Source of the DNA: Escherichia phage EAWsc9
Sequence record: PQ341120.1
Length of the DNA: 64,000 nucleotides
Reading direction: 5' to 3' (one strand)
The notes below the pieces were generated by a model. The model did no database searches, was not told the DNA's origin, and worked only from the letters and a program-made list of their open reading frames with translations. Numbering within the stretch: the stretch's first letter is position 1; the number at the start of each line of letters is the position of its first letter. Shown here piece after piece: positions 1 through 57,189 of the stretch. Position numbers and translations under genes: made by a program.

Positions 1-1081
1 AGGCAATAAGCGCATCAACTTCGGCATCAACAACAGCATTGCTATCAATTGCACCCAGCTGGTAATGACGTTTGATTGCGTCACGGAAAGGTTCGTGCTT
101 GAACAACGGACCCCAGAATTCGGTACAGTTAGTATCTTTTGCACGCCATGATTTTTCTTCGCGGACCATTTCACCGGTCTCAACATCAAGATATTCACGG
201 TTATACCAACCAACTTTCGGTTTCACCACAAATCCGATTTCCATTGCCATATCAAGCAGGCCAGAATACGGGTCAATACCCCCATCGAATTTTACATCAA
301 TGAAGAATTTACTTTTCTCTTTGACCATACGAGATTTTTCGGCGTTCAGAACAAATTGGAAACCTTCAAGTTCTTTACCAGTTTCTTTAATCTGACGTTT
401 ACCGATAATGAATACGGTGTCCGCAGAATACATAACACCTGTACCACCGGTCATAACGGTTTTGCTGTACATCTCAATCGTCTCAATTGTATGGTTAACC
501 GCGACACAAGGGATATCCTTGATACTAAAATATGGTGTAACAATACGGAATAGAGATTTCAGGGATTTAGCACGAGTCATATCGCCAACGACTTTTTCGT
601 TCATCGCATCTTCTGTTTCTTTTTTAGACGCCATGTTACCGATTGAGTCAATAAAGATAATGACTTTTTCACCACGCTCAATTGCTTCAAGCTGGTTAAC
701 CATATCAACTTTCAATTGTTCAACCGACTGGATTGGTGTGTGAATAACACGTTCCGGGTCAACTTTCATTGCACGAAGATAGGCTTCTGTGATACCAAAT
801 TCTGAATCATAGAACAAACAGATTGCGTCGGGGTATTTGTTCATATATGCAGAGACCATCGTTAAACCCATATTGGATTTAAAGTGTTTTGACGGACCAG
901 CAAAAATAGTCAAACCTGACTGCATACCACCATCTAGTGCACCGCTGATTGCAATGTTCAGCATCGGGATTTTTGTACGAACTACATCTTTATCATTAAA
1001 AAACTTGGACTTAGTAAGAGTCGCAGTCATTTTGGATGTAGAAGCTTTAATCAAACGGGATTTCAAATCTGCAATAGACAT
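1..1081 (-). CDS. uvsX: UvsX recombinase (RecA-like); N-terminal part, 3' end lies beyond window start
   Basis: Minus-strand ATG at 1079-1081 gives MSIADLKSRLIKASTSK..., near-identical to T4/RB69 UvsX N-terminus incl. Walker A region; reading frame continues past position 1. Confidence 0.93.
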   Translation of the reverse strand, partial: MSIADLKSRLIKASTSKMTATLTKSKFFNDKDVVRTKIPMLNIAISGALDGGMQSGLTIFAGPSKHFKSNMGLTMVSAYMNKYPDAICLFYDSEFGITEAYLRAMKVDPERVIHTPIQSVEQLKVDMVNQLEAIERGEKVIIFIDSIGNMASKKETEDAMNEKVVGDMTRAKSLKSLFRIVTPYFSIKDIPCVAVNHTIETIEMYSKTVMTGGTGVMYSADTVFIIGKRQIKETGKELEGFQFVLNAEKSRMVKEKSKFFIDVKFDGGIDPYSGLLDMAMEIGFVVKPKVGWYNREYLDVETGEMVREEKSWRAKDTNCTEFWGPLFKHEPFRDAIKRHYQLGAIDSNAVVDAEVDALIA

Positions 1082-1134
1082 TCATTTTTTCCATAGGCAC
1101 CATTATATTTTTCTCACAGGTTTAAGATAGGATA

Positions 1135-1162
1135 ATTATATCACTGTATTTTTAGAGCAATT
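1135..1162 (-). promoter_or_regulatory. Candidate MotA-type middle promoter upstream of uvsX
   Basis: Minus strand reads aaTTGCTCTA-12nt-TATAAT; resembles T4 MotA box (TGCTTtA) plus sigma70 -10 at correct spacing. Confidence 0.3.
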
Positions 1163-1166
1163 AATG

Positions 1167-1670
1167 TTAGTTAATACCTTGGCGTGCTTTCTCTTTAGCT
1201 ACACATTTATTAATATAGCTCAGACGGTTTTGAGCAGAACGCTGATACATATCGCGATACTCATTAGCTTTTGGAGAACCCGTCTCTGCTGCCTGATAAG
1301 CTTCCGCGCGCATGATGTTTATCTGCATATTGATGTATGACATGCAGACCTGTGAAATCTGGTTAACAGTATCCAGGTCATTTTGGCGCTTGGTTTCTGC
1401 TTCCAGTTTAGCAATGATTTCGTCATGCTTCGCAGCTTGTTCGCGTTTGTACTCAATTTCACGTTGAGCATATTTCGCGCAGTTATTTCCACATTGATTG
1501 TTGTCGCGTTTGTAGATAAGTCCAGTACCACCTTTGAAATCAAAGGAACCATTATGCACCTGACGGTCTGCAGCAATTCGCGCTTTACCAATCTCACTGG
1601 CATTAACTACATCACCCTGATAAGCACAACCAGATAGCAGCATAACAGCTGCGATAGCTAACTTTTTCAT
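1167..1670 (-). CDS. Predicted lipoprotein (signal peptide + lipobox LLSGC)
   Basis: ORF-track ORF 1167..1697 trimmed to internal ATG at 1670 preceded by GAGGA; product starts MKKLAIAAVMLLSGCAYQG. Confidence 0.6.
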   Translation of the reverse strand: MKKLAIAAVMLLSGCAYQGDVVNASEIGKARIAADRQVHNGSFDFKGGTGLIYKRDNNQCGNNCAKYAQREIEYKREQAAKHDEIIAKLEAETKRQNDLDTVNQISQVCMSYINMQINIMRAEAYQAAETGSPKANEYRDMYQRSAQNRLSYINKCVAKEKARQGIN

Positions 1671-1820
1671 TGTATTTTCCTCAATTAAAACATTCATAGC
1701 GGGCTTGGAGCCCCAAAAATACCCAACCCAAAATTAAAGTTGGAATCATATGCGGAGTCATTATTGCCCAATAGATTGACATACTAAAAAATGCAATCAG
1801 TACAATAATTGTAATTATCT

Positions 1821-2063
1821 TCATTTGGTTTCCTTGATGATAATTACATGTGCATTTGATTTACGCTCAGCAACGAGTGCCCAGATAAATGCAATAAACC
1901 ATCCGACCATTGTCCAACCTAACAGGAGGTTAACAAAGAAGATTCCGCAATTACTTTTGGTTCCTCGCAGTAGCGCGATAATCCACGGCAGAAAATATGC
2001 CAGTGCAGCCAGGAAGAAAGAACCAGCACCAAGAACAACAGTACCTGCAATTAATGTTTCCAT
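1821..2063 (-). CDS. Small two-helix membrane protein at the T4 imm position (Imm-like by synteny only)
   Basis: 80 aa ORF with two hydrophobic segments immediately upstream of gene 43, where T4 carries imm. Confidence 0.5.
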   Translation of the reverse strand: METLIAGTVVLGAGSFFLAALAYFLPWIIALLRGTKSNCGIFFVNLLLGWTMVGWFIAFIWALVAERKSNAHVIIIKETK

Positions 2064-2100
2064 TTTAATATCCTTAAGTTATTCATCAGTTGATGGAGTA

Positions 2101-2130
2101 ATCATACGGCAATCCTTTGCCGTTGTAAAC
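2101..2130 (-). promoter_or_regulatory. Early sigma70-type promoter (GTTTAC-18-TATGAT) with stem-loop in spacer
   Basis: Minus strand GTTTACaacggcaaaggattgccgTATGAT; hairpin ggcaa/ttgcc in spacer; precedes imm-like ORF. Confidence 0.4.
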
Positions 2131-2132
2131 AC

Positions 2133-4847
2133 TTAAAAATCAAACATATCAAAAAGAGATGCTTTTTTCTCGTAATCAACCTTAGCTGCTTCAGAGAACC
2201 CTGTTAACGGTTTGACAAAAGTCTTCTGGAACAGTGTGTTGTAGTCCATCCACTGCAGAACCTGGTCACGGATTTCAATCGGGAGTTCAATCCCTGATGG
2301 CCATGCAATCACGGTTTCGCCAAACGGGTTACCAACTTTAAGAGGAAGCACATACACCTTTTCCCCTTCCATGATTTGTGGAACAGTCTTCAGACCTTTA
2401 GTTGCACGCATATATGCAAGCACACCTTTGATATGAGCCGGGCACTTAAATCCAGGGAAACCACCCTCATTATATTTCTGAATGTTGTTAACCGATGATA
2501 CACCTGCGATGGTCATGTAGTTAAGCTCATTAAATTCCTTATTGAATTCCTTGAAGTATGTCTGCAGAGATTCTTCACCTTCTTGCAGCATGCGACGGAT
2601 ACATTCTTTCAGAGCTTTCTGGCATGCTTTTGGTGTACTCGACTTTTGAGTTTCCAGACCCATGATTTTCAGTTTCGGAACAGCATATCGTGTGCCTTCC
2701 ATATCGTACACGTTCAGAGCATAACGCTTCTTCGCCGTCCAGAATCCACCAACACCTTTAGAACCCAGCGGAGGGCATGCAATCGCTTCACGGTCCATAA
2801 ACATAAGGTGCTGTTTGTTGTTCATGTATTCAGCCAGCTCACGGAAAGCTTTATCGATTGCCGGTTCCAGACGGTCTTTCGCAAACTTGTCCATGAAGTC
2901 AACCAGGTGGTTTGTATCGCGGAATTTAGATTCACCACCAACCTTTTTAATCAGGTTATCGCACTGAATATAAATGGAGTCAGTATCGCCATAGAATACA
3001 TATGTTTCACCACTTGTACCACAAACACTATCAAAATATTCGTTAACTTTACGCTCAATCCACTGCAATGCAAGTTGTCCGAAAGATGTAATCGCGGTTG
3101 CATTTCGCAGGTCAAAGTAACGGAACCAGATATTACCCAGAGCGCCATAACAACTGTTGATAAGCAGTTTACGGTTAATCTGTGCGGTCATACCTGCAAC
3201 TTCTTCCATCTGCGCTTTGTACAACATACCATTCAGAACTGTTTGATTCAGACCGTGCAAGGTTGTTTTCATATTGTCATCGAAGTCATAACGATAATCA
3301 ACTTCAGGCTCGGTTGTACCAGCTCCTGGATTACGCAGAGCTTCCTTAATCAGTTCACCATTACGTTGAGCCGCAAGCATATAACCTTTGTGCTCTTTAC
3401 GCTGATTAAACACCTTGGTGACTTCTGTCGGAATAATACCTGCAACATCTTTAAAATACATCATGCCATTTGGAGCACAACTAAATGTATCGGATGGACG
3501 GTCAGCGGTTCCTGCGATGTATTCGTACATTGGCGCTGGTGCAAATGAGCCGGCAATCGTTTCTGGACTGATGTTAATCTGTCGGATGATGCTCGGATAC
3601 AGAGATGTTAAGTCACAGCTCATAACGTATTTGTATGCGTTTGGAATCGGTTCCTTAACAAATGCACCAGGGAACGATTGGCGAACATGCGATTTGGTTT
3701 CCGGAATGACTTTGTTTTGAGTCTTCAGGCTGTTAAAGATAATCGCATCCCAAGTTTTGATTGGGCTGAATACAGACTGAATCTGCATTTTTGCGTAATA
3801 ACCCATTGACTGACTAAGGTTAATAAACTGACGCTTACGGTCAATCTGTACAACACGATAAACATCGATGATGTTATAAGAAATATACCGTTGGTGATTT
3901 GATTCACGCAGTTTAGAAATCGGACCATCATACGGGAGTTTACCAACACCTAGCTCAGATTCTGCAACATAATCCAACGAATAAGATGGTTGGTTTGTGA
4001 AGCTGAACTTTTTGTACAGGTCCAGATAATCCAGAACAGAGATACCCAGAATCTGAATGATTTCTTGTTCTTCACCGAAGCCGTTGTTAATGACCTTAAC
4101 TTTTGTACGACGATGTGGGCTCAAACGTTTTGCCGTAGCTTCACCAAATACATTTTTAAGGCGGTTGTAGATATATGGAATATCAAACTTCTCGATGTTC
4201 CAACCAGTTAACATAACCGGAGTTTTCTCGTTCCAGAATACCAAATACTGCTGGAGCATTTCTTCTTCTGAATCGAAAGCCATATAAACAATTTTTTCCA
4301 GGATTTCTTCAGGGACTTCATCGCCGCCATCTTCTTGCAGCTTAGCAGCAATATCGATAGACCATTGCTCCACAGTGGCGTATGGTGAGCTCAAAAGGTC
4401 AAAGACATAGAATTTATCGTCTATCGAATCATAGTGCGTCAGGGCATCAATAGGGTGACGTGCTTCAGACGGCTCAGGGAACCCATCAGGAGATGTCACC
4501 TCGATATCGAAGTTAGCCACACGGATTTTACTTGAATCGTATTTGATTTCGTGCGGGTAACGGTCGGACAAGTATGCGAGTTTAAAGTCATCCATACCCA
4601 TAGCTTCGAGACCCATGTCATTCATTCGCTTCATCCACTGGGATGCATCACGCATGGAATCGAATTCTTTTTTCACACAACCTTTATTATAGATGTCTGT
4701 ATATTTTGCAGCCTGGTCTTCGCGGGCATGCATAAACAGGCATGGAGCATAGGGGATTTCACGAACACGTTCATGACCGTTCTTGTCAATGTATCGTTCG
4801 AGCAGATTGTCACCGATTTGTTCGATAGTTAAATAAAATTCTTGCAT
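2133..4847 (-). CDS. 43: DNA polymerase gp43 (family B, with 3'-5' exonuclease)
   Basis: 904 aa; MQEFYLTIEQIG..., DIE exo motif, SLYPSII, YGDTDS polymerase motif; high similarity to RB69/T4 gp43 from recall. Confidence 0.97.
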   Translation of the reverse strand: MQEFYLTIEQIGDNLLERYIDKNGHERVREIPYAPCLFMHAREDQAAKYTDIYNKGCVKKEFDSMRDASQWMKRMNDMGLEAMGMDDFKLAYLSDRYPHEIKYDSSKIRVANFDIEVTSPDGFPEPSEARHPIDALTHYDSIDDKFYVFDLLSSPYATVEQWSIDIAAKLQEDGGDEVPEEILEKIVYMAFDSEEEMLQQYLVFWNEKTPVMLTGWNIEKFDIPYIYNRLKNVFGEATAKRLSPHRRTKVKVINNGFGEEQEIIQILGISVLDYLDLYKKFSFTNQPSYSLDYVAESELGVGKLPYDGPISKLRESNHQRYISYNIIDVYRVVQIDRKRQFINLSQSMGYYAKMQIQSVFSPIKTWDAIIFNSLKTQNKVIPETKSHVRQSFPGAFVKEPIPNAYKYVMSCDLTSLYPSIIRQINISPETIAGSFAPAPMYEYIAGTADRPSDTFSCAPNGMMYFKDVAGIIPTEVTKVFNQRKEHKGYMLAAQRNGELIKEALRNPGAGTTEPEVDYRYDFDDNMKTTLHGLNQTVLNGMLYKAQMEEVAGMTAQINRKLLINSCYGALGNIWFRYFDLRNATAITSFGQLALQWIERKVNEYFDSVCGTSGETYVFYGDTDSIYIQCDNLIKKVGGESKFRDTNHLVDFMDKFAKDRLEPAIDKAFRELAEYMNNKQHLMFMDREAIACPPLGSKGVGGFWTAKKRYALNVYDMEGTRYAVPKLKIMGLETQKSSTPKACQKALKECIRRMLQEGEESLQTYFKEFNKEFNELNYMTIAGVSSVNNIQKYNEGGFPGFKCPAHIKGVLAYMRATKGLKTVPQIMEGEKVYVLPLKVGNPFGETVIAWPSGIELPIEIRDQVLQWMDYNTLFQKTFVKPLTGFSEAAKVDYEKKASLFDMFDF

Positions 4848-11644: not shown

Positions 11645-11826
11645 AAGCCAAGCGCCGTTATCGCAATGCAAAATAAAATTATTGAAATGAACCCGTCAGG
11701 AGTAGAAAAGAATCCTATCCAACAAGCTCGTGTGAATGTGTAGAATGCCATGAATAACACGACATATCCTAAAAATAATACCATATACTCTCCTCAGTTG
11801 GTTCATTTTATCATCCCGAATATAAA

Positions 11827-11852
11827 GCAAAAAAGGAAGCACTAGGCTTCCT
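11827..11852 (-). terminator. Rho-independent terminator-like hairpin
   Basis: Minus strand aggaagcCTAGTgcttcct followed by tttttt. Confidence 0.45.
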
Positions 11853-12371: not shown

Positions 12372-12666
12372 TTACGATTTCCCAAATTTGTTTGCGAGTA
12401 GTTTCCCACATCAACTTAATCAGGTCTTCCGTAACTGGTTGGCGGTAAATTCCACGCAGTTTAACTAAAGCATATTTGTATGCTTCAAAATTGTTTTCCA
12501 GCACTGCCCCTTGAGCATGCTTATTCAGTCGTGCAATTTCACGAGCATTCTTTTTCAGAATCTTTGCCGCTTGACTCTGTGCTTCGAGTGCGTTCGCTTC
12601 TTCGAGACGTTCCTGTGCTTCTTCAATCTGCTTATCGGTCAGTTGAGAAATATCTGGAGCTTGCAT
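12355..12666 (-). CDS. Hypothetical coiled-coil protein
   Basis: 103 aa ORF, charged helical sequence. Confidence 0.5.
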   Translation of the reverse strand: MQAPDISQLTDKQIEEAQERLEEANALEAQSQAAKILKKNAREIARLNKHAQGAVLENNFEAYKYALVKLRGIYRQPVTEDLIKLMWETTRKQIWEIVNGISK

Positions 12667-12667
12667 A

Positions 12668-12919
12668 TTAATCCTTGGGAGTTAACTCAATTGTAAAATA
12701 TAGATTAGCATTATCCACATGATAACGGTAATCAACGTTATTATCCGGCGAAGTAAATTCCAGATTCCGGACGTTTAAAGGGTCGATATCAATTGGAAGA
12801 CCTTTTATGTCTCGCAGATAAAGTTTAATGAAATATGGGAGCGCAGTAAAGTCTTCCTCGATTTTATCTAAAAAATCGGTAATATCAAATTGATGTTCCA
12901 TATAAAAAATCCAAATCAC
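12668..12919 (-). CDS. Hypothetical small protein
   Basis: 83 aa ORF immediately downstream of 55. Confidence 0.45.
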
Positions 12920-17181: not shown

Positions 17182-18995
17182 TGGTGTTTAACCCTATGCA
17201 TGATTTCTTTATTTTTGCCGAGATTAAATCCGCGCTCGTTCGGATTTCCCAAATAACCACAAGTTCTTCTTATTGTGTTCATCTTTTTAGGGTCAGTTTC
17301 TCCACAAATAGAACAAACAAATCCGTTTTCAGTAGGAGTCATTTCATGGGTACTTCCACACGTAAAACATTTATCTACTGGCATGTTAACACCAAAATAA
17401 TCTAAATGTTGCGCAGCATAATCCCATACAGCCTCAAGACCTTTTAAGTTATTTTTCATATCAGGAAGTTCAACATAAGAAATGTGACCACCTGTCGCAA
17501 TGAAATGATATGGAGCTTCGCGGGAAATCTTTTCAAACGGGGTGATATTTTCTTCTACTGAAACATGGAAACTATTAGTGTACCAGCCTTTATCAGTAAC
17601 ATCCTTTACACTTCCATATTTTTCAGTATCAAGTTTACAGAAGCGATAACAAAGGTTTTCAGCAGGTGTAGAATACAAGCTAAAAGCAAAACCGGTTCTT
17701 TCAGTCCACTGCTTAAGACGAGCATTCATTTTAGTCAAAATTTCCTGTCCAATATCACGACCGACAAGAATATTCAATTCGTGAATACCAATGTATCCCA
17801 AAGACACTGAACTTCTACCGTTTTTAAATAACTCAATTATATCATCATCAGGTTTAAGACGAACCCCGAATGCACCTTCTTGGTAAAGAATAGGAGCAAC
17901 AGTCGCTTTAACTCCTTTTAAGGAATTAATTCTACACATCAAAGCTTCAAAACACAAATCCATTCGCTCATTGAACAATTCGATAAATTTCTGTTCATTG
18001 AACTGTGTTCCAATATAAGAATCTAACGCAATGCGAGGAAGATTCAGTGTTACAACGCCAAGATTATTACGTCCATCAAGAATTTCATTGCCAGTCGAAT
18101 CTTTCCATAAGCTCAAGAAACTACGGCAACCCATTGGAGAAACAGGAATAGATGAACCAGTGATAGCTTTATTATTCTTAACTGAAATAATATCAGGATA
18201 CATCCTTTTGCTTGCACACTCTAGAGCAAGCTGCTTAATATCATAGTTCGGGTCGTCTTTATAAAGATTAACACCTTCTTCAACGAACATAACAAGTTTA
18301 GGGAAAATAGGAGTTATCCCATCACGGCCAAGACCTTTGATACGATTTTTCAGAATTGCTTTCTGAATCATTCGTTCAGTCCAGTCAGTTCCCGTACCAA
18401 ATGTAATGGTTACAAAAGGCGTTTGTCCGTTTGAACTAAAGAGAGTATTTACTTCATATTCATAAGCTTGGAATGCATCGTATACGTCTTTTTCTGTTTT
18501 AGATTGGGCGTAATTCAATGCATCAGTGATTTGCCATTTTTCTGCATCTTCAATATGTTTTGCGTATGTACGTTTAACATAAGGAGAAAATACTTTGTCT
18601 ACATTAGCAAAAGTCGTTCCACCATATTGGTGAGAAGCAACCTGTGCAGTAATTTGTGCCATAATTGCAGTAGCAACACCAATTGATTTAGGAGTTTCAA
18701 TCTGTGCGTTACCAAGCTTAAATCCGTTCTCAAGCATTCCTTTTAAATCTACTAAACAGCAATTAGTAAATGGAAGAGCAGGGGAATAATCAATATCATG
18801 GAAATGAATAATTCCACTTTCATGTGCTTTCATAATAAAAGACGCAACCATATTTTTGGCAATGTGTTTAGATACAATACCAGCCATAAGGTCCCGTTGA
18901 GTTGGAAAAACACGAGAATCTTTATTAGCATTCTCGTTTAAAAGGTCTTTATTAGTTTTATGAATCAATCCTTCAATTTCGTTTTCAATTGTCAT
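17178..18995 (-). CDS. nrdD: Anaerobic ribonucleoside-triphosphate reductase NrdD
   Basis: 605 aa (as T4 NrdD); C-terminal zinc ribbon CFTCGS...CSICG and glycyl-radical motif RRTCGYLG; ORF is uninterrupted (no intron). Confidence 0.95.
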   Translation of the reverse strand: MTIENEIEGLIHKTNKDLLNENANKDSRVFPTQRDLMAGIVSKHIAKNMVASFIMKAHESGIIHFHDIDYSPALPFTNCCLVDLKGMLENGFKLGNAQIETPKSIGVATAIMAQITAQVASHQYGGTTFANVDKVFSPYVKRTYAKHIEDAEKWQITDALNYAQSKTEKDVYDAFQAYEYEVNTLFSSNGQTPFVTITFGTGTDWTERMIQKAILKNRIKGLGRDGITPIFPKLVMFVEEGVNLYKDDPNYDIKQLALECASKRMYPDIISVKNNKAITGSSIPVSPMGCRSFLSLWKDSTGNEILDGRNNLGVVTLNLPRIALDSYIGTQFNEQKFIELFNERMDLCFEALMCRINSLKGVKATVAPILYQEGAFGVRLKPDDDIIELFKNGRSSVSLGYIGIHELNILVGRDIGQEILTKMNARLKQWTERTGFAFSLYSTPAENLCYRFCKLDTEKYGSVKDVTDKGWYTNSFHVSVEENITPFEKISREAPYHFIATGGHISYVELPDMKNNLKGLEAVWDYAAQHLDYFGVNMPVDKCFTCGSTHEMTPTENGFVCSICGETDPKKMNTIRRTCGYLGNPNERGFNLGKNKEIMHRVKHQ

Positions 18996-19465
18996 TTTAA
19001 ACTCTTTCTAAGCTGCTTCTTAAATGAAGCCATTAATTGTGTTTTGGTGTCAGATTCATTATAAGTCATACCATTCAAAAGCATTTCCCGAATCATTTCT
19101 TCTTTCCCCAGACGACCGAACTCTTTGGCTTTGTCTGTTACAAAATTGGGGTGAATATTGTTTTCGGTATAATCAGATTTCAGATAGACAAGCAAACTCT
19201 CTAACCATTCCAGGTAGTCAACATCGCGACTTTTCAGACCCGAACGGCTGAACTTATGCTTCATTTGTCCTTCTGTCCCATTGCACAGATTGCATAGTAA
19301 CCCGCGAACCTTACCAGCTTTTGGCCCGTTCAATTCGTGGTCATGGTCAAGATGGTTGGCCTGAACATCGGAGTCCAAATCACGGTGGCAAATTGGACAC
19401 TTACCAGCTTGTGCATCATAAAGTTTTTGTTTTTCTTCTTTGTATAATTTGCCAGTCAACAACAT
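18992..19465 (-). CDS. 49: Endonuclease VII gp49 (Holliday junction resolvase)
   Basis: 157 aa; MLLTGKLYKEEKQK...HLDHDHELNGPKAGKVRGLLCNLCN matches T4 endo VII. Confidence 0.95.
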   Translation of the reverse strand: MLLTGKLYKEEKQKLYDAQAGKCPICHRDLDSDVQANHLDHDHELNGPKAGKVRGLLCNLCNGTEGQMKHKFSRSGLKSRDVDYLEWLESLLVYLKSDYTENNIHPNFVTDKAKEFGRLGKEEMIREMLLNGMTYNESDTKTQLMASFKKQLRKSLK

Positions 19466-19676
19466 AATAAACCCTTACCATTATTAGATAAGGGTATTTA
19501 TTAAATCTTATAAAACGCGCGGTGTAACCGTTTAAATTGACGAATCATCTTTTTAGTAGGACGAGTATACAATCCCACACAGGTGGCCATAAACTGGTCG
19601 GTAGGACTTCCTTTAATAAGAAGTTTCCAGACCTTGTCACCATTTAACTTTTCAGTATAGACTAATGCAGTTTTCA

Positions 19677-21718: not shown

Positions 21719-22049
21719 TTTCGTCTCGCTCAAATTTGTGTTTACAATGTCTGCATTTGTAACGAAGAGTACTAGTCTGCCAATGGACTAACTGGACCTG
21801 TTCAGTTCCGCATTCTGGACAGTTTGGAACACGTTTAGAAGCACGTTCACGCCGACGAACCATAGCCATTACCATATCCCAATCAGGAACCTGACTATAA
21901 TCATCACAGCCATGAATCTTTCCTAACTGCACAAGGTCAGCACCCTCAGCGTTTTCAATAAATTTTAAAAGACCTTTATTAACCCCCGCAGCGGGGGTCC
22001 ATTCTGGAAATGCAGTTTCTGCAATATCTTCAGCTAAACGTTGTTTCAT
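21705..22049 (-). CDS. Hypothetical protein with C-terminal zinc ribbon
   Basis: 114 aa; CPECG...CRHCKHKF. Confidence 0.5.
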
Positions 22050-23035
22050 TTCAGCAGCTCCAGAGCCTGTTCCAGTTTATCCAGACGATTAGTTGATTCT
22101 TCCCAAAGTCGCTTGGCTTTGGTATAGTCTTCAGTTGCCTTTTTATTAACAGCAAGAGCTTTATTATACGCCATTTCCAGAGCAACAATTTCAGGCGCTT
22201 TTTGTTCCACTGGCTCATTATTCAGATTATCAATCAGGTCTTCAAGGGTGGTTTCTTGCGGAGCATTCATAATTTCCTCACTTTTCTTTTTATAAATTTC
22301 TGCATCAGTTGGTTGTTTTGCGCATTTAACTTCGCGTAATGTCACCACAATTTTCCAACCTTTCCAACCATGAGTACTGGTGATAGGGTCTACTTTAATT
22401 TTTTCAACAGTACGCATATAATTAAGGGCACACTGCATCTGTGAAGTAAGCGTACTCGCAGCATCAAAATACTTTTTGACATTTTCTGGAGTAGCCACTG
22501 GCGTAAAGAATCCATACTTAGCTGTAATAATTACCTGGTTTTCACCAGACTCTTTAACCTTGACCATGTGCTCAGCCAAATGGGAGATAGTGCGATAATC
22601 GCCACCCATCAGCTTTGTTGCTGATTTGATGATAGACATTTTGTTATCTCTGAATTCACGAGCCCAGCAATTTGCGAATTCAGAAACAGTATAGCCTTGA
22701 TTATCAAGGTAGTATTTTTCAACATCACCAAACCAATGATATCCAATTGTACCTTTACCACGTCTGGATTCAACACCAAACTTATTAAGAAGGTCTTTAT
22801 TAACTAGGTATGCCAGGACTCGGGAACCTTTAAAAGTTTTCTTGATATCATCTTTACCGGCACGACTCGCAATAGTCGCAATGTCTTTCTTGAAGCGACC
22901 GGATGCAACAATCGTCGAGTCAATCTGATTTAACCAGTAATTGATAATTAAAAGGATAGCCGATTCACCTATTAATGGTTTTACTTTTGCATCGATAGTG
23001 GTGTTAAAGGCCTGGATATATTCGTTACGCGTCAT
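22046..23035 (-). CDS. Hypothetical protein with C-terminal coiled coil
   Basis: 329 aa ORF. Confidence 0.55.
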   Translation of the reverse strand: MTRNEYIQAFNTTIDAKVKPLIGESAILLIINYWLNQIDSTIVASGRFKKDIATIASRAGKDDIKKTFKGSRVLAYLVNKDLLNKFGVESRRGKGTIGYHWFGDVEKYYLDNQGYTVSEFANCWAREFRDNKMSIIKSATKLMGGDYRTISHLAEHMVKVKESGENQVIITAKYGFFTPVATPENVKKYFDAASTLTSQMQCALNYMRTVEKIKVDPITSTHGWKGWKIVVTLREVKCAKQPTDAEIYKKKSEEIMNAPQETTLEDLIDNLNNEPVEQKAPEIVALEMAYNKALAVNKKATEDYTKAKRLWEESTNRLDKLEQALELLK

Positions 23036-23093
23036 AGTGTTCTCCTCATAAAGTAGGAATTCATTATACTCCCTCCATCCTTGGAAGTAAACA

Positions 23094-26322: not shown

Positions 26323-27069
26323 ATGATTTTATCCGGAAGAACTGTTGATGAACTCAATGAAAAAGTCCAGGCTGCCTTGGCTAATAATTGGTATTTGTTT
26401 GGTTCTACTATGGTGTTGCCGAATACCCCTACAGATAGCAAAGAGCGTTTTTTCCAAACTATGTCCAGCTCGGAAACTCAGATACCGGGCCCGCCTGGGC
26501 CAAAAGGAGACCCGGGTGTACCAGGACCAAAAGGAGACCCAGGCGGGGATGGAAAGTCTTCTTATCAGATATGGCTTGACTTGGGAAATACAGGAACTGT
26601 TGATGATTTTTTAACTGATACAGCAGGAAAGAGGGAAAAATCCGAGGTGTTTTGGAGTGGTATAAACGTTCTATTAACTAATGGTACGACTTCAAACATA
26701 ATTAGTGTTTTAAAGGGGATTCCACCGACTGCAGGGACTCTATCTCCGTTTTTTAGAACCACTGATGATAAGTTGTGGCCATATAACCAAGACAGAAGCC
26801 TAATGTTTAAACTCAACCTTATTGGTAATTTTGCAGGAGCCTCGCAAGCTCGAAGTATAACATTAAATTTCGTTGGAACCAACGGAAACACTTATATACA
26901 GAATCGTCCGGAAAATGCTACAGATATTTTGTCTTTTACAACGTTCTTTAGCATTGATAAAGATGGGGCAATGGCAACCAATGGTACAGCTATAACTGTT
27001 ATGCCAAATGGCGGCAACTTTACAATAACCTCTGCATTGTTAGTAGCCGAACAAACAGTGACTTCATAA
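26323..27069 (+). CDS. Collagen-like repeat protein with fibre-type C-terminal domain
   Basis: 248 aa plus-strand ORF; AGGAG 6 nt upstream of ATG; eight G-X-Y triplets (GPPGPKGDPGVPGPKGDPGGDGKS) then S-x-Y-Q-I-W-L motif typical of phage fibre proteins. Confidence 0.7.
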   Translation: MILSGRTVDELNEKVQAALANNWYLFGSTMVLPNTPTDSKERFFQTMSSSETQIPGPPGPKGDPGVPGPKGDPGGDGKSSYQIWLDLGNTGTVDDFLTDTAGKREKSEVFWSGINVLLTNGTTSNIISVLKGIPPTAGTLSPFFRTTDDKLWPYNQDRSLMFKLNLIGNFAGASQARSITLNFVGTNGNTYIQNRPENATDILSFTTFFSIDKDGAMATNGTAITVMPNGGNFTITSALLVAEQTVTS

Positions 27070-47451: not shown

Positions 47452-47691
47452 TCATTCAATTGTAATAGCTAATTTGACTTTAACAACCTTATAATTGGAA
47501 TCAAGGTCATTGAATTCCATAAAATTTGTTGCTAATCTGCGAGTCGGGAAACTTAGATATTTATTATGCTCAGGTGGAGCAGTTAATGCAAACCATGGGA
47601 CTTGTTTATCATTTTCATCAAACTCATCAAAGCTATAAACCAGCTCGTTGTTGGTTATATCCATAACTGCATATGATTCACTAATAACCAT
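47452..47691 (-). CDS. Hypothetical acidic protein
   Basis: ORF 47452..47736 (non-ATG start codon, overlaps tRNA) trimmed to internal ATG with GAGGA upstream. Confidence 0.45.
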   Translation of the reverse strand: MVISESYAVMDITNNELVYSFDEFDENDKQVPWFALTAPPEHNKYLSFPTRRLATNFMEFNDLDSNYKVVKVKLAITIE

Positions 47692-47706
47692 AATATCCTC
47701 GGTAAT

Positions 47707-47783
47707 TGGTCGGGGTGGTGGGATTCTAACCCACAACCTACGGTTTAGAAGACCGTTGCTCTATACAATTGAGCTACACCCCG
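47707..47783 (-). tRNA. tRNA-Arg (anticodon UCU)
   Basis: Hand-folded cloverleaf: acceptor 7 bp, D stem gctc/gagc, anticodon stem acggt/accgt with loop cuUCUaa, T stem gtggg/cccac, encoded CCA; unusual D-loop and T-loop (U19/A56). Confidence 0.7.
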
Positions 47784-47859
47784 GGTGGCCCCATCCGGAC
47801 TTGAACCGGAAACCTGCCAGTTATGAGCCGGATGCTCTAACCAATTGAGCTACAGGGCC
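47784..47859 (-). tRNA. tRNA with anticodon CAU (Met or lysidine-modified Ile)
   Basis: Hand-folded cloverleaf: acceptor ggccctg/tggggcc, D-loop aattggtta, anticodon loop cuCAUaa, T arm tccgg-ttcaagt-ccgga; 3' end encodes CC only; abuts tRNA-Arg. Confidence 0.7.
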
Positions 47860-47864
47860 TAAAA

Positions 47865-48134
47865 TTAAATTACAAATCCAGCGGGAGCATTATCATCTTT
47901 AGCCATGTGCTGAATTGTATGATAAGTCATTTCTTCTGGTGCAACCAGATAAGCCGCTGCGTTAACCAACGGGATTAATTTGACTTTATTAAATGTTGGA
48001 CAACCAATTGACATAAAGGTTTCGCCTGTTGGATGCTGAATTTCGCCAAATTGACACTCATACGAAATAGAGCAACGTTTGGTAGTGGTTGTCTTTGTTT
48101 TAGGGTCGTAAAAAGCTAATTTTAATACTAACAT
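47865..48134 (-). CDS. Hypothetical protein
   Basis: 89 aa ORF. Confidence 0.45.
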   Translation of the reverse strand: MLVLKLAFYDPKTKTTTTKRCSISYECQFGEIQHPTGETFMSIGCPTFNKVKLIPLVNAAAYLVAPEEMTYHTIQHMAKDDNAPAGFVI

Positions 48135-48254
48135 AACACCTCAAGTAAAATTAAGTAAAGTAAGTTTGATTAATAGCACATGCTATTATGAAAGGTTCTT
48201 TGAGGGAAGAACCTTTGGTAATAGAGGGTACTTATTAATAATAACGCGTTTTTA

Positions 48255-51637: not shown

Positions 51638-51638
<1 letters not shown>

Positions 51639-52315
51639 TATATTACCTTATTAATTTTATCAAAAAGTTCTTCGAGTGTGCCATTGTTTTTAATAACAAT
51701 GTCACTAGCTAGTGGTGGAAGTCCAGCTTCCGTAATGTGTGTATCGGTAGAATGATTTGCTTCATCGCGTTCTACAAAGATTATTGTAGCACCCATCGCC
51801 CGAAGCGAATCAAGTTCGTTCTTTTGACGAACATCTGGGACAACGTAATATTTATATCCAGAATAGAGGTTGTCAAGATAATCGCACGCAAAAGTTTTAA
51901 TCCAAAACATGCTGTCGAACTCTGTACAAACGATGTCAGTTCCAAGGGTCTGCATGAAACGTCTAACTGTCCAGGGCTCAACATTATTTAGTGTGTGAAA
52001 TTCAATGATTTTACGAACCATATCTGGATTCGGAAGGTCAAGATTGTATTGTTGTTTCAACCATTCAAGAGCATCAACCAGAAGAATATAAGCTTCGGTG
52101 TTGTTCATTATCAAGGTTTTTTCACGGTCATAACCTTGTCCATCAAAATTTTCCAGGGTCAAATTGTGTGGCAGGTCTTGACGAATCCACGCTTTATAAA
52201 GCGCTTCTTTAATCGGACCTGCAAGCTGCCACTTTGTTCCGTTTTGACTAATAACATAATCAGCAGTCGTATCTTTACCACTGCGTTTTTTGCCCACAAT
52301 CGCAATTAATTTCAT
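51638..52315 (-). CDS. 1: Deoxynucleoside monophosphate kinase gp1
   Basis: 225 aa; P-loop GKKRSGKDTTADYV; colinear with T4 gp1. Confidence 0.92.
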
Positions 52316-54918: not shown

Positions 54919-56657
54919 TTAATATGTCAGATAGTGTAAGTTGGTTCGTCGGTGTTGTCGAAGACCGAATGGACCCACTTCAACAAGGTCGTGTTCGCGT
55001 CCGGGTATGGGGTATGCATCCATATGAGAAATCACAAGGGCCTGTAAAAGGTATCAGAACTGAAGACCTGCCATGGATGTCCGTACTGATGCCAACATCA
55101 TCTGCATCGGTTTCCGGTATTCAAACTGCCATGACTGGTATGGTACCAGGGACTCAGGTATATGGTCACTTTTTGGACAAGTGGAAGCTCAATGGATTAG
55201 TCCTTGGTACATATGGCTCAGCATCAAGACAGAAGGCAAACACAACAGAAGGTTTTAGTGACCCCACAGGGCAATATCCGCTTTATGTGGGCAATGATGC
55301 TGCTGCGCTTAACCGAGGCGGTGAGGTCGGTTATGATGACACTTCAAACGTAATACAAGATGCAAACACTGATGTAGGTATTAATCCAGACGGGTTAGAT
55401 TTAAGCCAAGTTAAGCCTGATGATAATCCTAATTTCACAATAGAAAACATGCTTCACCGCGATGAAGGTCTTCGTCTGAAAGTATATTGGGACACTGAAG
55501 GTTATCCTACTATAGGTATAGGACACTTAATTACACCACAACCTATTAGAGATATGAATCAGATAAACAAAATATTATCTAATCAAATAGGCCGTGAAGT
55601 TAAAGGTAACCCTGGTGCAATATCAATGGACGAGGCTTCTAAGTTATTCCAAGAAGACCTTAAAAAAGTCCAAAATGATATAGGCAGGCATAGCGTTGTA
55701 GGTCCGGTTTACAATAAAGAAAACCGTTCAAGACAAATGGCTCTTGAAAACATGGCTTTCCAAATGGGATTAGGTGGACTTGCTAAATTCCGTGGAATGC
55801 TTAGTGCAATGTTAATAGGCGATTATAAAAAGGCATTTGAAGAAGCTCGTAATTCAGTATGGTTTAACCAAACTAAAGGGCGTGCATCAAGGGTATCAAT
55901 GATTATCCTTACCGGTAATATGGAATCATATGGTATTATGGCTCCCAAAGAAAGGGAATTTAATGGGCGTTCTTATAGGATGATTCAAACCTTTGCAGCC
56001 CCTACAAATTCCGACCCGGCCGACCCGTGGACTCCAGAAGATACGAGGATTCTATTTAAAGAGCCAGAATCAAGTTACAAGGGCGAATATCCTTATGTGC
56101 AGACAATGCAAACTGAAGGCGGGCATATTCAGGAATTCGATAACACTCCAGGACAAGAACGTTATCGATTGATTCATCCGACCGGTTCCTATGAGGAAGT
56201 TGCACCAGATGGTCGTAAGACTTCGAAGACGGTAGCCGATGGCTATTATATGACCCAGGGTGATTCAAACACTTATGTTGGCGGGAATAATAAAGTCAAC
56301 GTTGGTGGTGATGAAACCTATTACAATATGGCTAACGTTCGTCGTCAGACCGATGGAAACGAAACCATCCATATTCGTGGTAACGAAGAGAAAACTGTAG
56401 AAGGTAATGGAACACTCAGAGTTAAAGGCAACGTTACTGTTATTGTTGAAGGAAATGCTGATGTTACTGTTAAGGGTGATGCGACTACCTTAGTAGAAGG
56501 TAATGAAACTCGCACGACTAATGGTAATTTAAACTGGACTGTAAATGGTACCGTATCTTGGACTTGTGCAGGTGCTTGGTCCGAGACTATGGCTTCAATG
56601 AGTTCTATTGCATCTGGTCAATATACTATTGATGGTTCGAGGATTGACATTGGCTAA
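54915..56657 (+). CDS. 5: Baseplate hub / tail lysozyme gp5
   Basis: 580 aa; N-terminal OB-fold, lysozyme domain YWDTEGYPTIGIGHLI, C-terminal VxGxxxx beta-helix repeats. Confidence 0.95.
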   Translation: MINMSDSVSWFVGVVEDRMDPLQQGRVRVRVWGMHPYEKSQGPVKGIRTEDLPWMSVLMPTSSASVSGIQTAMTGMVPGTQVYGHFLDKWKLNGLVLGTYGSASRQKANTTEGFSDPTGQYPLYVGNDAAALNRGGEVGYDDTSNVIQDANTDVGINPDGLDLSQVKPDDNPNFTIENMLHRDEGLRLKVYWDTEGYPTIGIGHLITPQPIRDMNQINKILSNQIGREVKGNPGAISMDEASKLFQEDLKKVQNDIGRHSVVGPVYNKENRSRQMALENMAFQMGLGGLAKFRGMLSAMLIGDYKKAFEEARNSVWFNQTKGRASRVSMIILTGNMESYGIMAPKEREFNGRSYRMIQTFAAPTNSDPADPWTPEDTRILFKEPESSYKGEYPYVQTMQTEGGHIQEFDNTPGQERYRLIHPTGSYEEVAPDGRKTSKTVADGYYMTQGDSNTYVGGNNKVNVGGDETYYNMANVRRQTDGNETIHIRGNEEKTVEGNGTLRVKGNVTVIVEGNADVTVKGDATTLVEGNETRTTNGNLNWTVNGTVSWTCAGAWSETMASMSSIASGQYTIDGSRIDIG

Positions 56658-56691
56658 TATACTTCCGATGAGCACTGACCTAGGAGACTCC

Positions 56692-57189
56692 ATGGAAGGA
56701 GCCTCAATCGATGTTACGTTTACAGCTCAATTAGAAACAAACGAAACATTAGTCGAAATAAATATAACTGAATATGAGGCCACCCCTGGCGTTAATGTTG
56801 AGGGAAATCATCTTTATGGTGTTTATGAATCCGTGTTCGGATTTGCAGATGATGCACTTAAATATCGGCTTAATGCTGAATTTAAAACTGCTGGTTCATG
56901 GGAAGACCTTCCTACCGATAAGAGTACTCAATTGTATCTCTGGAGGGCCCCATCGAGCCTCCAGAAGGTCTTTTCATACACGGTAACCCTAACCTATGAT
57001 TTTCAAGAAGAGAGCTCTGGTGGAGACACAGGGAACTCTGGTGGCAGTAATAGCCGTACAGGTAATGAGACCGACCCACCTCCTGCTCCAGTAAGAAAGA
57101 CAATGACAAAAGTTTACACAAAAACTATCGTTGGCAACTGGTCAAGATGGGCCGATAAATTGCGTTCATACGTATACGCGAGGGATTAA
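56692..57189 (+). CDS. 5.1: Baseplate-associated protein gp5.1
   Basis: ORF 56608..57189 trimmed to ATG at 56692 with AGGAG 5 nt upstream; position between 5 and 5.4. Confidence 0.6.

What the first reader, a model, noticed from the sequence alone, without database searches (positions are those of the whole stretch)
1082..2132. No dCMP hydroxymethylase (42) or beta-glucosyltransferase at the T4 syntenic position
In T4 the order is uvsX, beta-gt, 42, imm, 43. Here the whole interval holds only the lipoprotein and Imm-like genes, with no room for a roughly 250 aa gene 42 or a roughly 350 aa glucosyltransferase. Either hydroxymethylation genes lie elsewhere in the genome or this phage modifies cytosine differently.
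Basis: partly seen in the sequence, partly recalled or inferred. Interest (0 to 1): 0.5.

Follow-up and report, generated by a model that had tools for sequence, protein, structure and literature searches.

The report
T4-like phage lacking cytosine-modification cassette
This T4-like phage (genus Gaprivervirus) really has no hydroxymethylcytosine or sugar-transfer genes, at the usual site or anywhere in near-identical complete genomes, and its relatives' thymidylate synthase carries the one residue change known to make that enzyme methylate dCMP, so its DNA probably holds 5-methylcytosine.

Summary
Window 1082-2132 holds an 85-bp spacer, a 176-aa lipoprotein-like ORF, a 47-aa membrane ORF and imm, between uvsX and gene 43. 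The alpha-gt slot is empty too.

The window is a Gaprivervirus, 97-98% identical to phages TH40, vB_YenM_P8 and SP18. The complete SP18 and TH40 genomes have no homolog of T4 gp42, alpha-gt or beta-gt. They also lack the RB69/JS98-type 5-hydroxycytosine/arabinosylation cluster, which fills this slot in the sister genus Dhakavirus. gp56, alc, denA, denB and ndd are kept, and those tested are under purifying selection.

Two papers (2021, 2025) already noted this gap and left it unexplained.

My lead is that every Gaprivervirus td has Asp at E. coli ThyA position 177, while 115 other T-even Td clusters have Asn. All other catalytic residues are intact. Asn177Asp is the published switch from dUMP to dCMP methylation. 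The 5mC phage XP12 has the same Asp, beside a dCMP deaminase and a DHFR. Published restriction data show that VR7, a Gaprivervirus, has modified, unglycosylated cytosines.

Predicted outcome: 5-methylcytosine replaces cytosine. td lies outside the window, and no chemistry has been done.

The parts
1..1081 (-). uvsX, 5' part; start codon at 1081. It is the left flank of the slot.
   Evidence: The reading gives MSIADLKSRLIKAS. The position matches SP18 uvsX at 21866-23044.
1082..1166 (.). 85-bp intergenic junction. At this point JS98 carries a 4.2-kb cluster (gp038-gp042) and T4 carries segA, b-gt and 42.
   Evidence: JS98 annotation and T4 annotation. 70 nt next to uvsX are 90% identical to the JS98 uvsX upstream region. 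No remnant of the cluster is detectable.
1167..1697 (-). Lipoprotein-like ORF (lipobox LSGC) of unknown function, homolog of JS98 gp043.
   Evidence: phrog_1754, E=3e-47. There is no Pfam hit. Only the signal peptide resembles T4 Imm.1.
1681..1824 (-). 47-aa hydrophobic ORF ('42.1'-like; equivalent to JS98 gp044).
   Evidence: phrog_3610, E=8e-27; annotated 42.1 in VR7.
1821..2063 (-). imm, superinfection immunity protein.
   Evidence: PF14373, E=9.5e-18; 51% identical to T4 Imm.
2133..4847 (-). Gene 43 DNA polymerase, the right flank of the slot.
   Evidence: 904-aa ORF; annotated as DNA polymerase in all matching records.
11785..11841 (.). Empty alpha-glucosyltransferase slot: a 57-bp gap between the 47.1-like ORF and a-gt.2.
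   Evidence: ORF list, T4 order 47, 47.1, a-gt, mobB, a-gt.2, and no a-gt tblastn hit.
51638..52315 (-). Gene 1 dNMP kinase. It is the only predicted step of the modified-dCMP pathway that lies inside the window, and it would phosphorylate the modified dCMP.
   Evidence: PF21448, E=7e-77; 98% identical to SP18 gp1; only 46.6% identical to JS98 gp1, against a genome median near 70%.

Best explanation
The interval is the empty form of the cytosine-modification slot of Tevenvirinae. T4 keeps gene 42 and b-gt there. The RB69/JS98 type keeps a 5-hydroxy-dCMP synthase plus arabinose-activation and transfer genes there. Gapriverviruses, including this phage, have no cassette there or anywhere else in the genome.

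I propose that they replace cytosine with 5-methylcytosine, using a retooled copy of their own thymidylate synthase gene td, which lies outside the window. The proposed steps are:
1. gp56 dCTPase makes dCMP.
2. Td carrying Asp instead of Asn at ThyA position 177 methylates dCMP with methylene-THF, and Frd recycles the dihydrofolate.
3. gp1 (window 51638-52315) and host NDP kinase convert the product to 5-methyl-dCTP.
4. gp43 incorporates it into DNA.
5. dTMP comes from Cd deamination of 5-methyl-dCMP, from host ThyA, or from salvage.

The methyl mark would let Alc, DenA and DenB attack host C-DNA while sparing phage DNA.

Shown here: the absence of the cassette, the Asp177 substitution and its conservation, and purifying selection on td, gp56, alc and denB. 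Taken from the literature: the effect of Asn177Asp, and the modified unglycosylated cytosines of VR7. Inferred: that the base is 5mC, the route to dTMP, and that Alc and DenB discriminate 5mC from C.
For: 1. Absence. There is no hit for T4 gp42, a-gt or b-gt, or for JS98 gp038-042, in the window, SP18 or TH40. Td is the only ThyA-fold ORF. No ThyX motif and no DNA methyltransferase motif was found.

2. Sister genus. JS98 holds five genes between uvsX and the lipoprotein gene. They match the RB69 5hoC/arabinosylation cluster (PMC13326640). That paper lists Dhakavirus among the genera with this pathway and does not list Gaprivervirus.

3. Td sequence. Td reads LGLPFDIGSY in SP18, VR7 and the P8/TH40 type, in two metagenomic clusters, and in the 67%-identical P0069. 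115 other T-even Td clusters have Asn. Eighteen other active-site residues and the C-terminus are unchanged. The closest solved structure is T4 TS 1TIS, aligned over its full length with a single one-residue gap.

4. Correlation. 32 phage records have the compact uvsX-43 arrangement and 32 records carry the Asp-type Td. All 25 records listed also appear among the 32.

5. Selection. The Asp-type Tds form one clade (NJ bootstrap 71%). Between SP18 and TH40, dN/dS is 0.13 for td, 0.17 for gp56, 0.10 for alc and 0.12 for denB.

6. Precedent. The TS homolog of the 5mC phage XP12 also has Asp (GLPYD) and sits beside a dCMP deaminase and a DHFR. Asn177Asp is reported to switch TS to dCMP methylation, and Asp177 is associated with modified viral contigs (PMC8670742).

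7. Experiment in the literature. VR7 DNA has 'modified cytosines' and is unglycosylated. In the same assay, which included T4 BGT treatment, T4147 was called hydroxymethylated and the Dhakavirus VR5 glycosylated (PMC6326788; taxonomy).
Against: - The td gene is not in the 64-kb window, so the claim rests on 97-98% identical relatives.
- No nucleoside analysis of any Gaprivervirus was found.
- I could read only the legend of the VR7 figure, not the gel. The authors did not name the modification.
- From memory, engineered Asn-to-Asp TS mutants are weaker catalysts than wild type, so the natural enzyme might act on both substrates.
- Whether Alc and DenB spare 5mC DNA has never been tested.
- SP18 and JS98 Td are 69% identical, which is close to the genome-wide median. 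There is therefore no sign of exceptional divergence beyond the active-site change.
Confidence: 0.66

Rival explanations
1. This is only a local rearrangement: gene 42 and the glycosyltransferases sit elsewhere in the genome, and the DNA is canonical glucosyl-hmC.
For: Only 64 kb of a roughly 171-kb genome is visible in the window.
Against: The complete genomes of SP18 and TH40 have no tblastn or phmmer hit to gp42, a-gt, b-gt or any JS98 cluster protein. Two surveys report that the genus lacks the gene. VR7 DNA is unglycosylated.
Confidence: 0.02
2. The phage DNA contains ordinary cytosine. gp56, Alc and DenB have changed specificity or are tolerated, as in Krischvirus and Pseudotevenvirus, and Td-Asp177 is just a variant thymidylate synthase.
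For: C-DNA T4-like genera keep gp56 and denA (table quoted). There is no direct chemistry for this phage.
Against: C-DNA genera lack alc and denB, whereas Gapriverviruses keep both under purifying selection. VR7 DNA behaves as cytosine-modified in restriction tests after growth on BL21. No DNA methyltransferase motif exists in SP18 that could explain this after replication. Asp177 is conserved across a clade that spans 67-100% identity.
Confidence: 0.07
3. Td-Asp177 acts as a dCMP hydroxymethylase, so the DNA carries bare 5-hydroxymethylcytosine.
For: T4 gp42 also has Asp at this position, and unglycosylated modified cytosine is compatible with the published description of VR7.
Against: Td keeps the whole TS apparatus, including W80, Y94, H147 and the C-terminal residue, and is colinear with T4 TS. 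gp42 is a much more diverged, shorter protein. In the assay that included T4 BGT, T4147 was labelled hydroxymethylated, whereas VR7 was labelled only 'modified'.
Confidence: 0.08
4. An unrecognised enzyme among the many small or unknown ORFs, possibly acting on the Td product, makes a cytosine derivative not yet described in T4-like phages.
For: Two papers propose an unknown base. Many ORFs have no known function. The Krischvirus SAP shows that modification can exist without a recognisable pathway.
Against: ORFs in SP18 that have no JS98 counterpart are homing endonucleases, nrdD/nrdG, internal head proteins, ORFs of about 170 aa or fewer, and one 687-aa late-region ORF that this window lacks. 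None looks like a base-modifying enzyme. The Asp177 Td already gives a sufficient explanation.
Confidence: 0.12

Closest known systems
Xanthomonas phage XP12 5-methylcytosine replacement (ThyA-family dCMP methyltransferase with dCMP deaminase and DHFR)
   Same: It has a single full-length TS homolog with Asp at ThyA-177. The catalytic Cys, phosphate-binding Args, E58, W80 and Y94 are kept, and the genome also encodes a dCMP deaminase and a DHFR. The predicted product is unglycosylated 5mC that replaces C at the nucleotide level.
   Different: XP12 TS is only about 31% identical to the Gaprivervirus Td, has Pro at position 147 and lacks the TS C-terminus. The Gaprivervirus enzyme is a T-even Td (69% identical to JS98 Td, colinear with T4 TS 1TIS), so the switch arose independently. 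XP12 is a siphovirus with no Alc/DenB-type host shutoff. 5mC is proven for XP12 and only predicted here.
T4 gp42 dCMP hydroxymethylase with alpha- and beta-glucosyltransferases
   Same: The genomic slot between uvsX and imm is the same. So is the accessory set: gp56 dCTPase, gp1 kinase, Alc, DenA, DenB and Ndd. The logic of replacing dCTP with a C5-modified analogue is also shared.
   Different: There is no gp42, a-gt or b-gt homolog. No sugar is attached (VR7 data). The predicted chemistry is reductive methylation, not hydroxymethylation.
RB69/JS98/DLP3 5-hydroxycytosine plus arabinosylation cluster (Lee et al. 2026, PMC13326640)
   Same: It occupies the same slot in the sister genus Dhakavirus: JS98 gp038-042 lie directly between uvsX and the homolog of the window's lipoprotein gene.
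   Different: The entire cluster is missing here. The missing genes are the 5hodCMP synthase, arabinosyltransferase, nucleotide kinase, phosphatase and the nucleotidyltransferase-kinase.
Engineered thymidylate synthase L. casei N229D / E. coli N177D
   Same: It has the same single-residue change in an otherwise canonical TS, and that change is reported to convert the enzyme to a dCMP methylase (PMC8670742 citing Liu & Santi 1992, Hardy & Nalivaika 1992, Graves 1992).
   Different: The Gaprivervirus enzyme is natural and carries further lineage-specific changes near the pocket: E. coli positions 82, 148, 149, 179 and 182. Its activity has not been measured.

Membership tests
T4-type hmC pathway (gp42 plus glucosyltransferases) | A dCMP hydroxymethylase (gp42) homolog is encoded | tested here: not met
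   tblastn and phmmer found nothing in the window, SP18 or TH40.
T4-type hmC pathway (gp42 plus glucosyltransferases) | An alpha- and/or beta-glucosyltransferase is encoded | tested here: not met
   No hits, and both syntenic slots are empty.
T4-type hmC pathway (gp42 plus glucosyltransferases) | Accessory genes are present: gp56 dCTPase, gp1 dNMP kinase, alc, denB | tested here: met
   gp1 is in the window. gp56, alc, denA, denB and ndd are in SP18 and TH40, and for gp56, alc and denB dN/dS is 0.10-0.17.
RB69-type 5hoC/arabinosylation cluster | A 5hodCMP synthase (RB69 gp48 / JS98 gp039 type) is encoded | tested here: not met
   JS98 gp039 gives no hit in the window, SP18 or TH40. It has 382 matching records in other phages.
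RB69-type 5hoC/arabinosylation cluster | An arabinosyltransferase and UDP-arabinose synthesis genes are encoded | tested here: not met
   JS98 gp038, gp040, gp041 and gp042 give no hit.
ThyA-family dCMP methyltransferase / 5mC-replacement phages (XP12 type) | Asp at the position of E. coli ThyA Asn177 | tested here: met
   Seen in SP18, VR7, the P8/TH40-type Td, three metagenomic clusters and XP12. The gene lies outside the window.
ThyA-family dCMP methyltransferase / 5mC-replacement phages (XP12 type) | The catalytic machinery for reductive methylation is intact (C146, E58, W80, Y94, the Arg phosphate clamp, the C-terminus) | tested here: met
   Residue table; full-length alignment to T4 TS 1TIS with a single one-residue gap.
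ThyA-family dCMP methyltransferase / 5mC-replacement phages (XP12 type) | Partner DHFR and dCMP deaminase genes are present | tested here: met
   frd overlaps td, and cd is present in SP18 and TH40. XP12 has the same trio.
ThyA-family dCMP methyltransferase / 5mC-replacement phages (XP12 type) | The enzyme methylates dCMP in vitro | not testable with these tools
   This needs recombinant Td assayed with dCMP or dUMP plus methylene-THF.
ThyA-family dCMP methyltransferase / 5mC-replacement phages (XP12 type) | Virion DNA has 5-methyl-dC in place of dC | not testable with these tools
   Only indirect evidence exists: VR7 has modified, unglycosylated cytosines by restriction analysis (PMC6326788).
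Imm superinfection immunity protein (PF14373) | Match to the Pfam model above its gathering score | tested here: met
   64.3 bits against a cut-off of 27.9.

The most novel reading that the evidence does not exclude
Gapriverviruses carry a non-glycosylated cytosine derivative that is not 5mC, 5hmC or 5hoC. It would be made either from the Td-Asp177 product or by an enzyme hidden among the uncharacterised ORFs, giving a new base in one of the best-studied phage groups.
Probability: 0.12. Interest if true: 0.8.

Novelty: new member of a known kind. Interest (0 to 1): 0.58.

Why it matters
T-even phages are the textbook case of wholesale cytosine replacement. Two chemistries are documented in the group: glucosyl-hmC and arabinosyl-5hoC. 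Two papers state that Gapriverviruses should be unable to replicate with their gene set unless they carry an unknown base.

A one-residue retooling of the phage's own thymidylate synthase would solve that puzzle and add 5mC as a third chemistry. It would also show how a lineage can lose a 4-kb modification cassette without disarming its own anti-cytosine weapons, Alc and DenB.

There are practical consequences as well. Bare 5mC DNA should be open to BREX, which already blocks VR7 (PMC6326788), and to McrBC-type restriction. That affects the choice of these phages for therapy. The enzyme would also be a natural, evolved dCMP methylase.

One LC-MS run would settle the question.

Tried and rejected
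- **Divergent gp42.** tblastn at E up to 10 and phmmer --max, using T4 gp42 and JS98 gp039 against all SP18 ORFs, found only noise.
- **Genes gained by SP18 relative to JS98.** I looked for any that could replace gp42. The unmatched ORFs are homing endonucleases, nrdD/nrdG, internal head proteins, ORFs of about 170 aa or fewer, and a 687-aa late-region ORF that the window lacks. None is a plausible enzyme.
- **Post-replicative methylation.** No N6/N4 or C5 methyltransferase motif was found in SP18 ORFs of 120 aa or more. The one [DNS]PP[YFW] match is the C-terminus of DenA.
- **A second thymidylate synthase.** There is no second ThyA hit and no ThyX motif.
- **Relics of the lost cassette.** The intergenic DNA of the window, TH40 and VR7 contains none. 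The extra ~240-260 bp in TH40 and VR7 encodes a small membrane ORF.
- **Unusual divergence of Td.** SP18 and JS98 Td are 69% identical, close to the genome median, so this is not evidence either way.
- **alc as a pseudogene.** The split 'alca/alcb' annotation in SP18 suggested this. alca is full length and conserved, and alcb is a partial extra copy.
- **IMG/VR scan for DVFLGLPFDI.** It returned only VR20, VR25, VR26 and one unrelated contig, so it gave no wider distribution.
- **Original VR7 papers.** They are not in the library.
- **Substitution-spectrum test for 5mC deamination.** I considered it and dropped it, because no comparable control triplets were available.

Full report
**Identity of the window.** The first 5 kb match 32 phage records over at least 80% of their length at 95-99% identity. 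All belong to the genus Gaprivervirus. The best matches are Yersinia phage vB_YenM_P8 (98.6%), Escherichia virus TH40 (98.5%) and Shigella phage SP18 (96.9%). Against the complete TH40 genome the window aligns along almost its whole length at roughly 90-98%. I therefore used complete genomes of this genus as proxies for the part of the genome that the window does not show.

**Checking the observation.** All the genes concerned are on the minus strand. uvsX starts at 1081. An 85-bp spacer follows. The next ORF, 1167-1697, encodes 176 aa with a lipobox (MKKLAIAAVMLLSGC). It matches phrog_1754, has no Pfam hit, and is 53% identical to JS98 gp043. Then come a 47-aa hydrophobic ORF at 1681-1824 (phrog_3610; called 42.1 in VR7), imm at 1821-2063 (PF14373; 51% identical to T4 Imm), and gene 43 at 2133-4847.

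The T4 record confirms the order 43, imm.1, imm, 42, b-gt, segA, uvsX. tblastn with T4 gp42, b-gt and a-gt finds nothing in the window. The a-gt site is also empty: 57 bp separate the 47.1-like ORF from a-gt.2.

**Are the genes elsewhere?** The SP18 annotation has no gene 42 and no glycosyltransferase. It does list gp56, alc, denA, denB, ndd, cd, td, frd and gene 1. tblastn and phmmer against the whole SP18 and TH40 genomes find no gp42, a-gt or b-gt.

Two papers already report this for the genus. Both call it unexplained and suggest an unknown non-canonical base (PMC8056088; PMC12115623). The absence itself is therefore not new.

**What sits in the slot in the sister genus.** In JS98 (Dhakavirus) five genes, gp038-gp042, lie between uvsX and the homolog of the window's lipoprotein gene. 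gp039 is a distant ThyA-fold protein, 24.5% identical to gp42. The others look like a glycosyltransferase, a P-loop kinase, a HAD phosphatase and a nucleotidyltransferase-kinase fusion.

The JS98 annotations name RB69 orf045c-orf052c as their relatives. Lee et al. (NAR 2026, PMC13326640) show that the products of those RB69 genes form a 5-hydroxy-dCMP synthase plus arabinosylation cluster. That paper lists Dhakaviruses among the genera with the pathway, and Gapriverviruses are not listed.

None of the five JS98 proteins has a hit in the window, SP18 or TH40. The spacer holds no relic of them. The interval is therefore the empty state of a slot that holds different cytosine-modification cassettes in T4 and in RB69/JS98.

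**Looking for a replacement.** Comparing all SP18 ORFs with JS98 showed no gained enzyme. SP18 also has no DNA methyltransferase motif and no ThyX motif. The lead came from td.

- SP18 Td reads RSVDVFLGLPFDIGSY, where JS98 Td reads ...LGLPFNIASY. This residue is E. coli ThyA Asn177.
- Among the 120 best Td homologs, Asp occurs only in five clusters. These are the SP18 type, the P8/TH40 type (86% identical to SP18), two metagenomic clusters, and P0069. P0069 is 67-69% identical and comes from an uncultured T4-like contig that also carries frd.2, frd.1 and DHFR.
- The other 115 clusters, from Tequatrovirus, Mosigvirus, Dhakavirus and others, have Asn.
- VR7 Td also has Asp.
- 32 phage records carry this Td, the same number as have the compact uvsX-43 arrangement. 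All 25 records listed also appear.
- The Asp-type Tds form one clade in a neighbour-joining tree (bootstrap 71%).
- Eighteen other active-site residues and the C-terminal residue are unchanged.
- The protein aligns to the T4 TS structure 1TIS over its full length, with a single one-residue gap.
- Between SP18 and TH40, dN/dS is 0.13 for td, 0.17 for gp56, 0.10 for alc and 0.12 for denB. All four genes are therefore maintained by selection.

**What Asp177 means.** The MetaGPA study (PMC8670742) summarises the earlier enzymology of Graves 1992, Hardy & Nalivaika 1992 and Liu & Santi 1992. [quoted passage not shown] The study also finds Asp177 enriched in viral contigs with modified cytosine.

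I fetched XP12, the classic phage with complete 5mC replacement. Its only annotated TS homolog also has Asp (GLPYD) and lies next to a dCMP deaminase and a DHFR. Gapriverviruses have the same three functions in Td-Asp177, Frd and Cd. The two enzymes are only about 31% identical, so the switch arose independently.

Td keeps everything needed for hydride transfer and is far from gp42 in sequence. I therefore infer methylation rather than hydroxymethylation.

**Experimental support in the literature.** Gordeeva et al. (PMC6326788) digested phage DNAs with modification-sensitive enzymes, with and without pre-treatment by T4 beta-glucosyltransferase. They concluded that VR5 and T4 are glycosylated, that T4147 is hydroxymethylated, and that VR7 'has modified cytosines' in unglycosylated DNA. 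VR5 is a Dhakavirus and VR7 a Gaprivervirus. VR7 has the same empty slot and the Asp-type Td. This fits 5mC but does not prove it. I could read only the figure legend.

**Proposed mechanism and its status.**
1. gp56 supplies dCMP.
2. Td-Asp177 methylates it, and Frd recycles the dihydrofolate.
3. gp1 (window 51638-52315; PF21448) and host NDP kinase produce 5-methyl-dCTP.
4. gp43 incorporates it into DNA.
5. dTMP comes from Cd acting on 5-methyl-dCMP, from host ThyA, or from salvage.
6. Alc, DenA and DenB then act on host C-DNA only.

Shown here: the gene content, the substitution, its conservation and the selection on it. Taken from the literature: the effect of Asn177Asp and the VR7 restriction result. 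Inferred: the identity of the base, the source of dTMP, and discrimination between 5mC and C by Alc and DenB.

The main weaknesses are that td lies outside the window and that no nucleoside analysis exists. I put the confidence at about 0.66. The rivals are genes located elsewhere (0.02), unmodified cytosine (0.07), bare hmC made by Td (0.08), and an unknown enzyme or base (0.12).

**Novelty.** The missing gene 42 is already published. I found no paper in the searchable library that links it to Td-Asp177 or predicts 5mC for this genus. The library is incomplete, and the original VR7 papers could not be read.

The enzyme kind is known from XP12 and from engineered TS. A T-even relative using it would be a new member of that kind and a third cytosine chemistry in Tevenvirinae. 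One LC-MS experiment would decide the matter.

Noticed in passing
window 26323-27069 (+): A 248-aa ORF lies on the opposite strand inside the early nrdC region. It has an Sf6-type tail-needle-knob domain (PF16532, E=3e-32; phrog_1030) and a weak, sub-threshold collagen-repeat match. SP18 has only a 280-bp gap at this position, whereas the TH40 genome aligns across it at about 91%.
   Followed up: partly
outside the window: SP18 144065-144925 versus TH40 18707-19564: td is mosaic within the genus. Between SP18 and TH40, dS is 0.90 for td but 0.15 for the overlapping frd and 0.19 for cd. This suggests exchange of old Asp-type td alleles, with the Asp always kept.
   Followed up: partly
window 51638-52315 (-): gp1 dNMP kinase is one of the most diverged real proteins between SP18 and JS98: 46.6% identical against a median near 70%, and 28 aa shorter. 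This may reflect adaptation to a different modified dCMP.
   Followed up: no
TH40 (L011) about 68064-68326; VR7 (L017) about 4133-4373: TH40 and VR7 carry an extra 240-260 bp between uvsX and the lipoprotein gene that encodes a small hydrophobic ORF. The window and SP18 lack it.
   Followed up: partly
SP18 L003 38588-38821; TH40 about 12505-12690: A partial duplicate of the alc N-terminus ('alcb', 46-53% identical over 34-67 aa) sits just upstream of the full-length alc in both SP18 and TH40.
   Followed up: no
window 47707-47859 (-): The window has only two tRNA genes, Arg-TCT and Met-CAT. SP18 and JS98 have Arg, Asn and Met at the equivalent position. Window 47452-48180 has no megablast match in TH40.
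   Followed up: no
window 56608-57189 (+); SP18 L002 27249-29312: SP18 has a 687-aa ORF (RB43 ORF205w-like) between gene 5 and gene 6. The window has a 193-aa ORF there instead, so this late-region locus varies within the genus.
   Followed up: no
SP18 L002 17559-18002 and 18086-18511; L004 14095-14310: Three small SP18 proteins without tblastn matches in JS98 share a C-terminal motif (V)VQSYASNF/YRK. They appear to form a paralogous family of unknown function.
   Followed up: no
L020 (IMG/VR UViG_3300023503_000001, 54 kb): An unrelated viral contig, with no DNA similarity to T4-like genomes, encodes a 269-aa canonical-looking TS that also has Asp at position 177 and keeps His147.
   Followed up: partly
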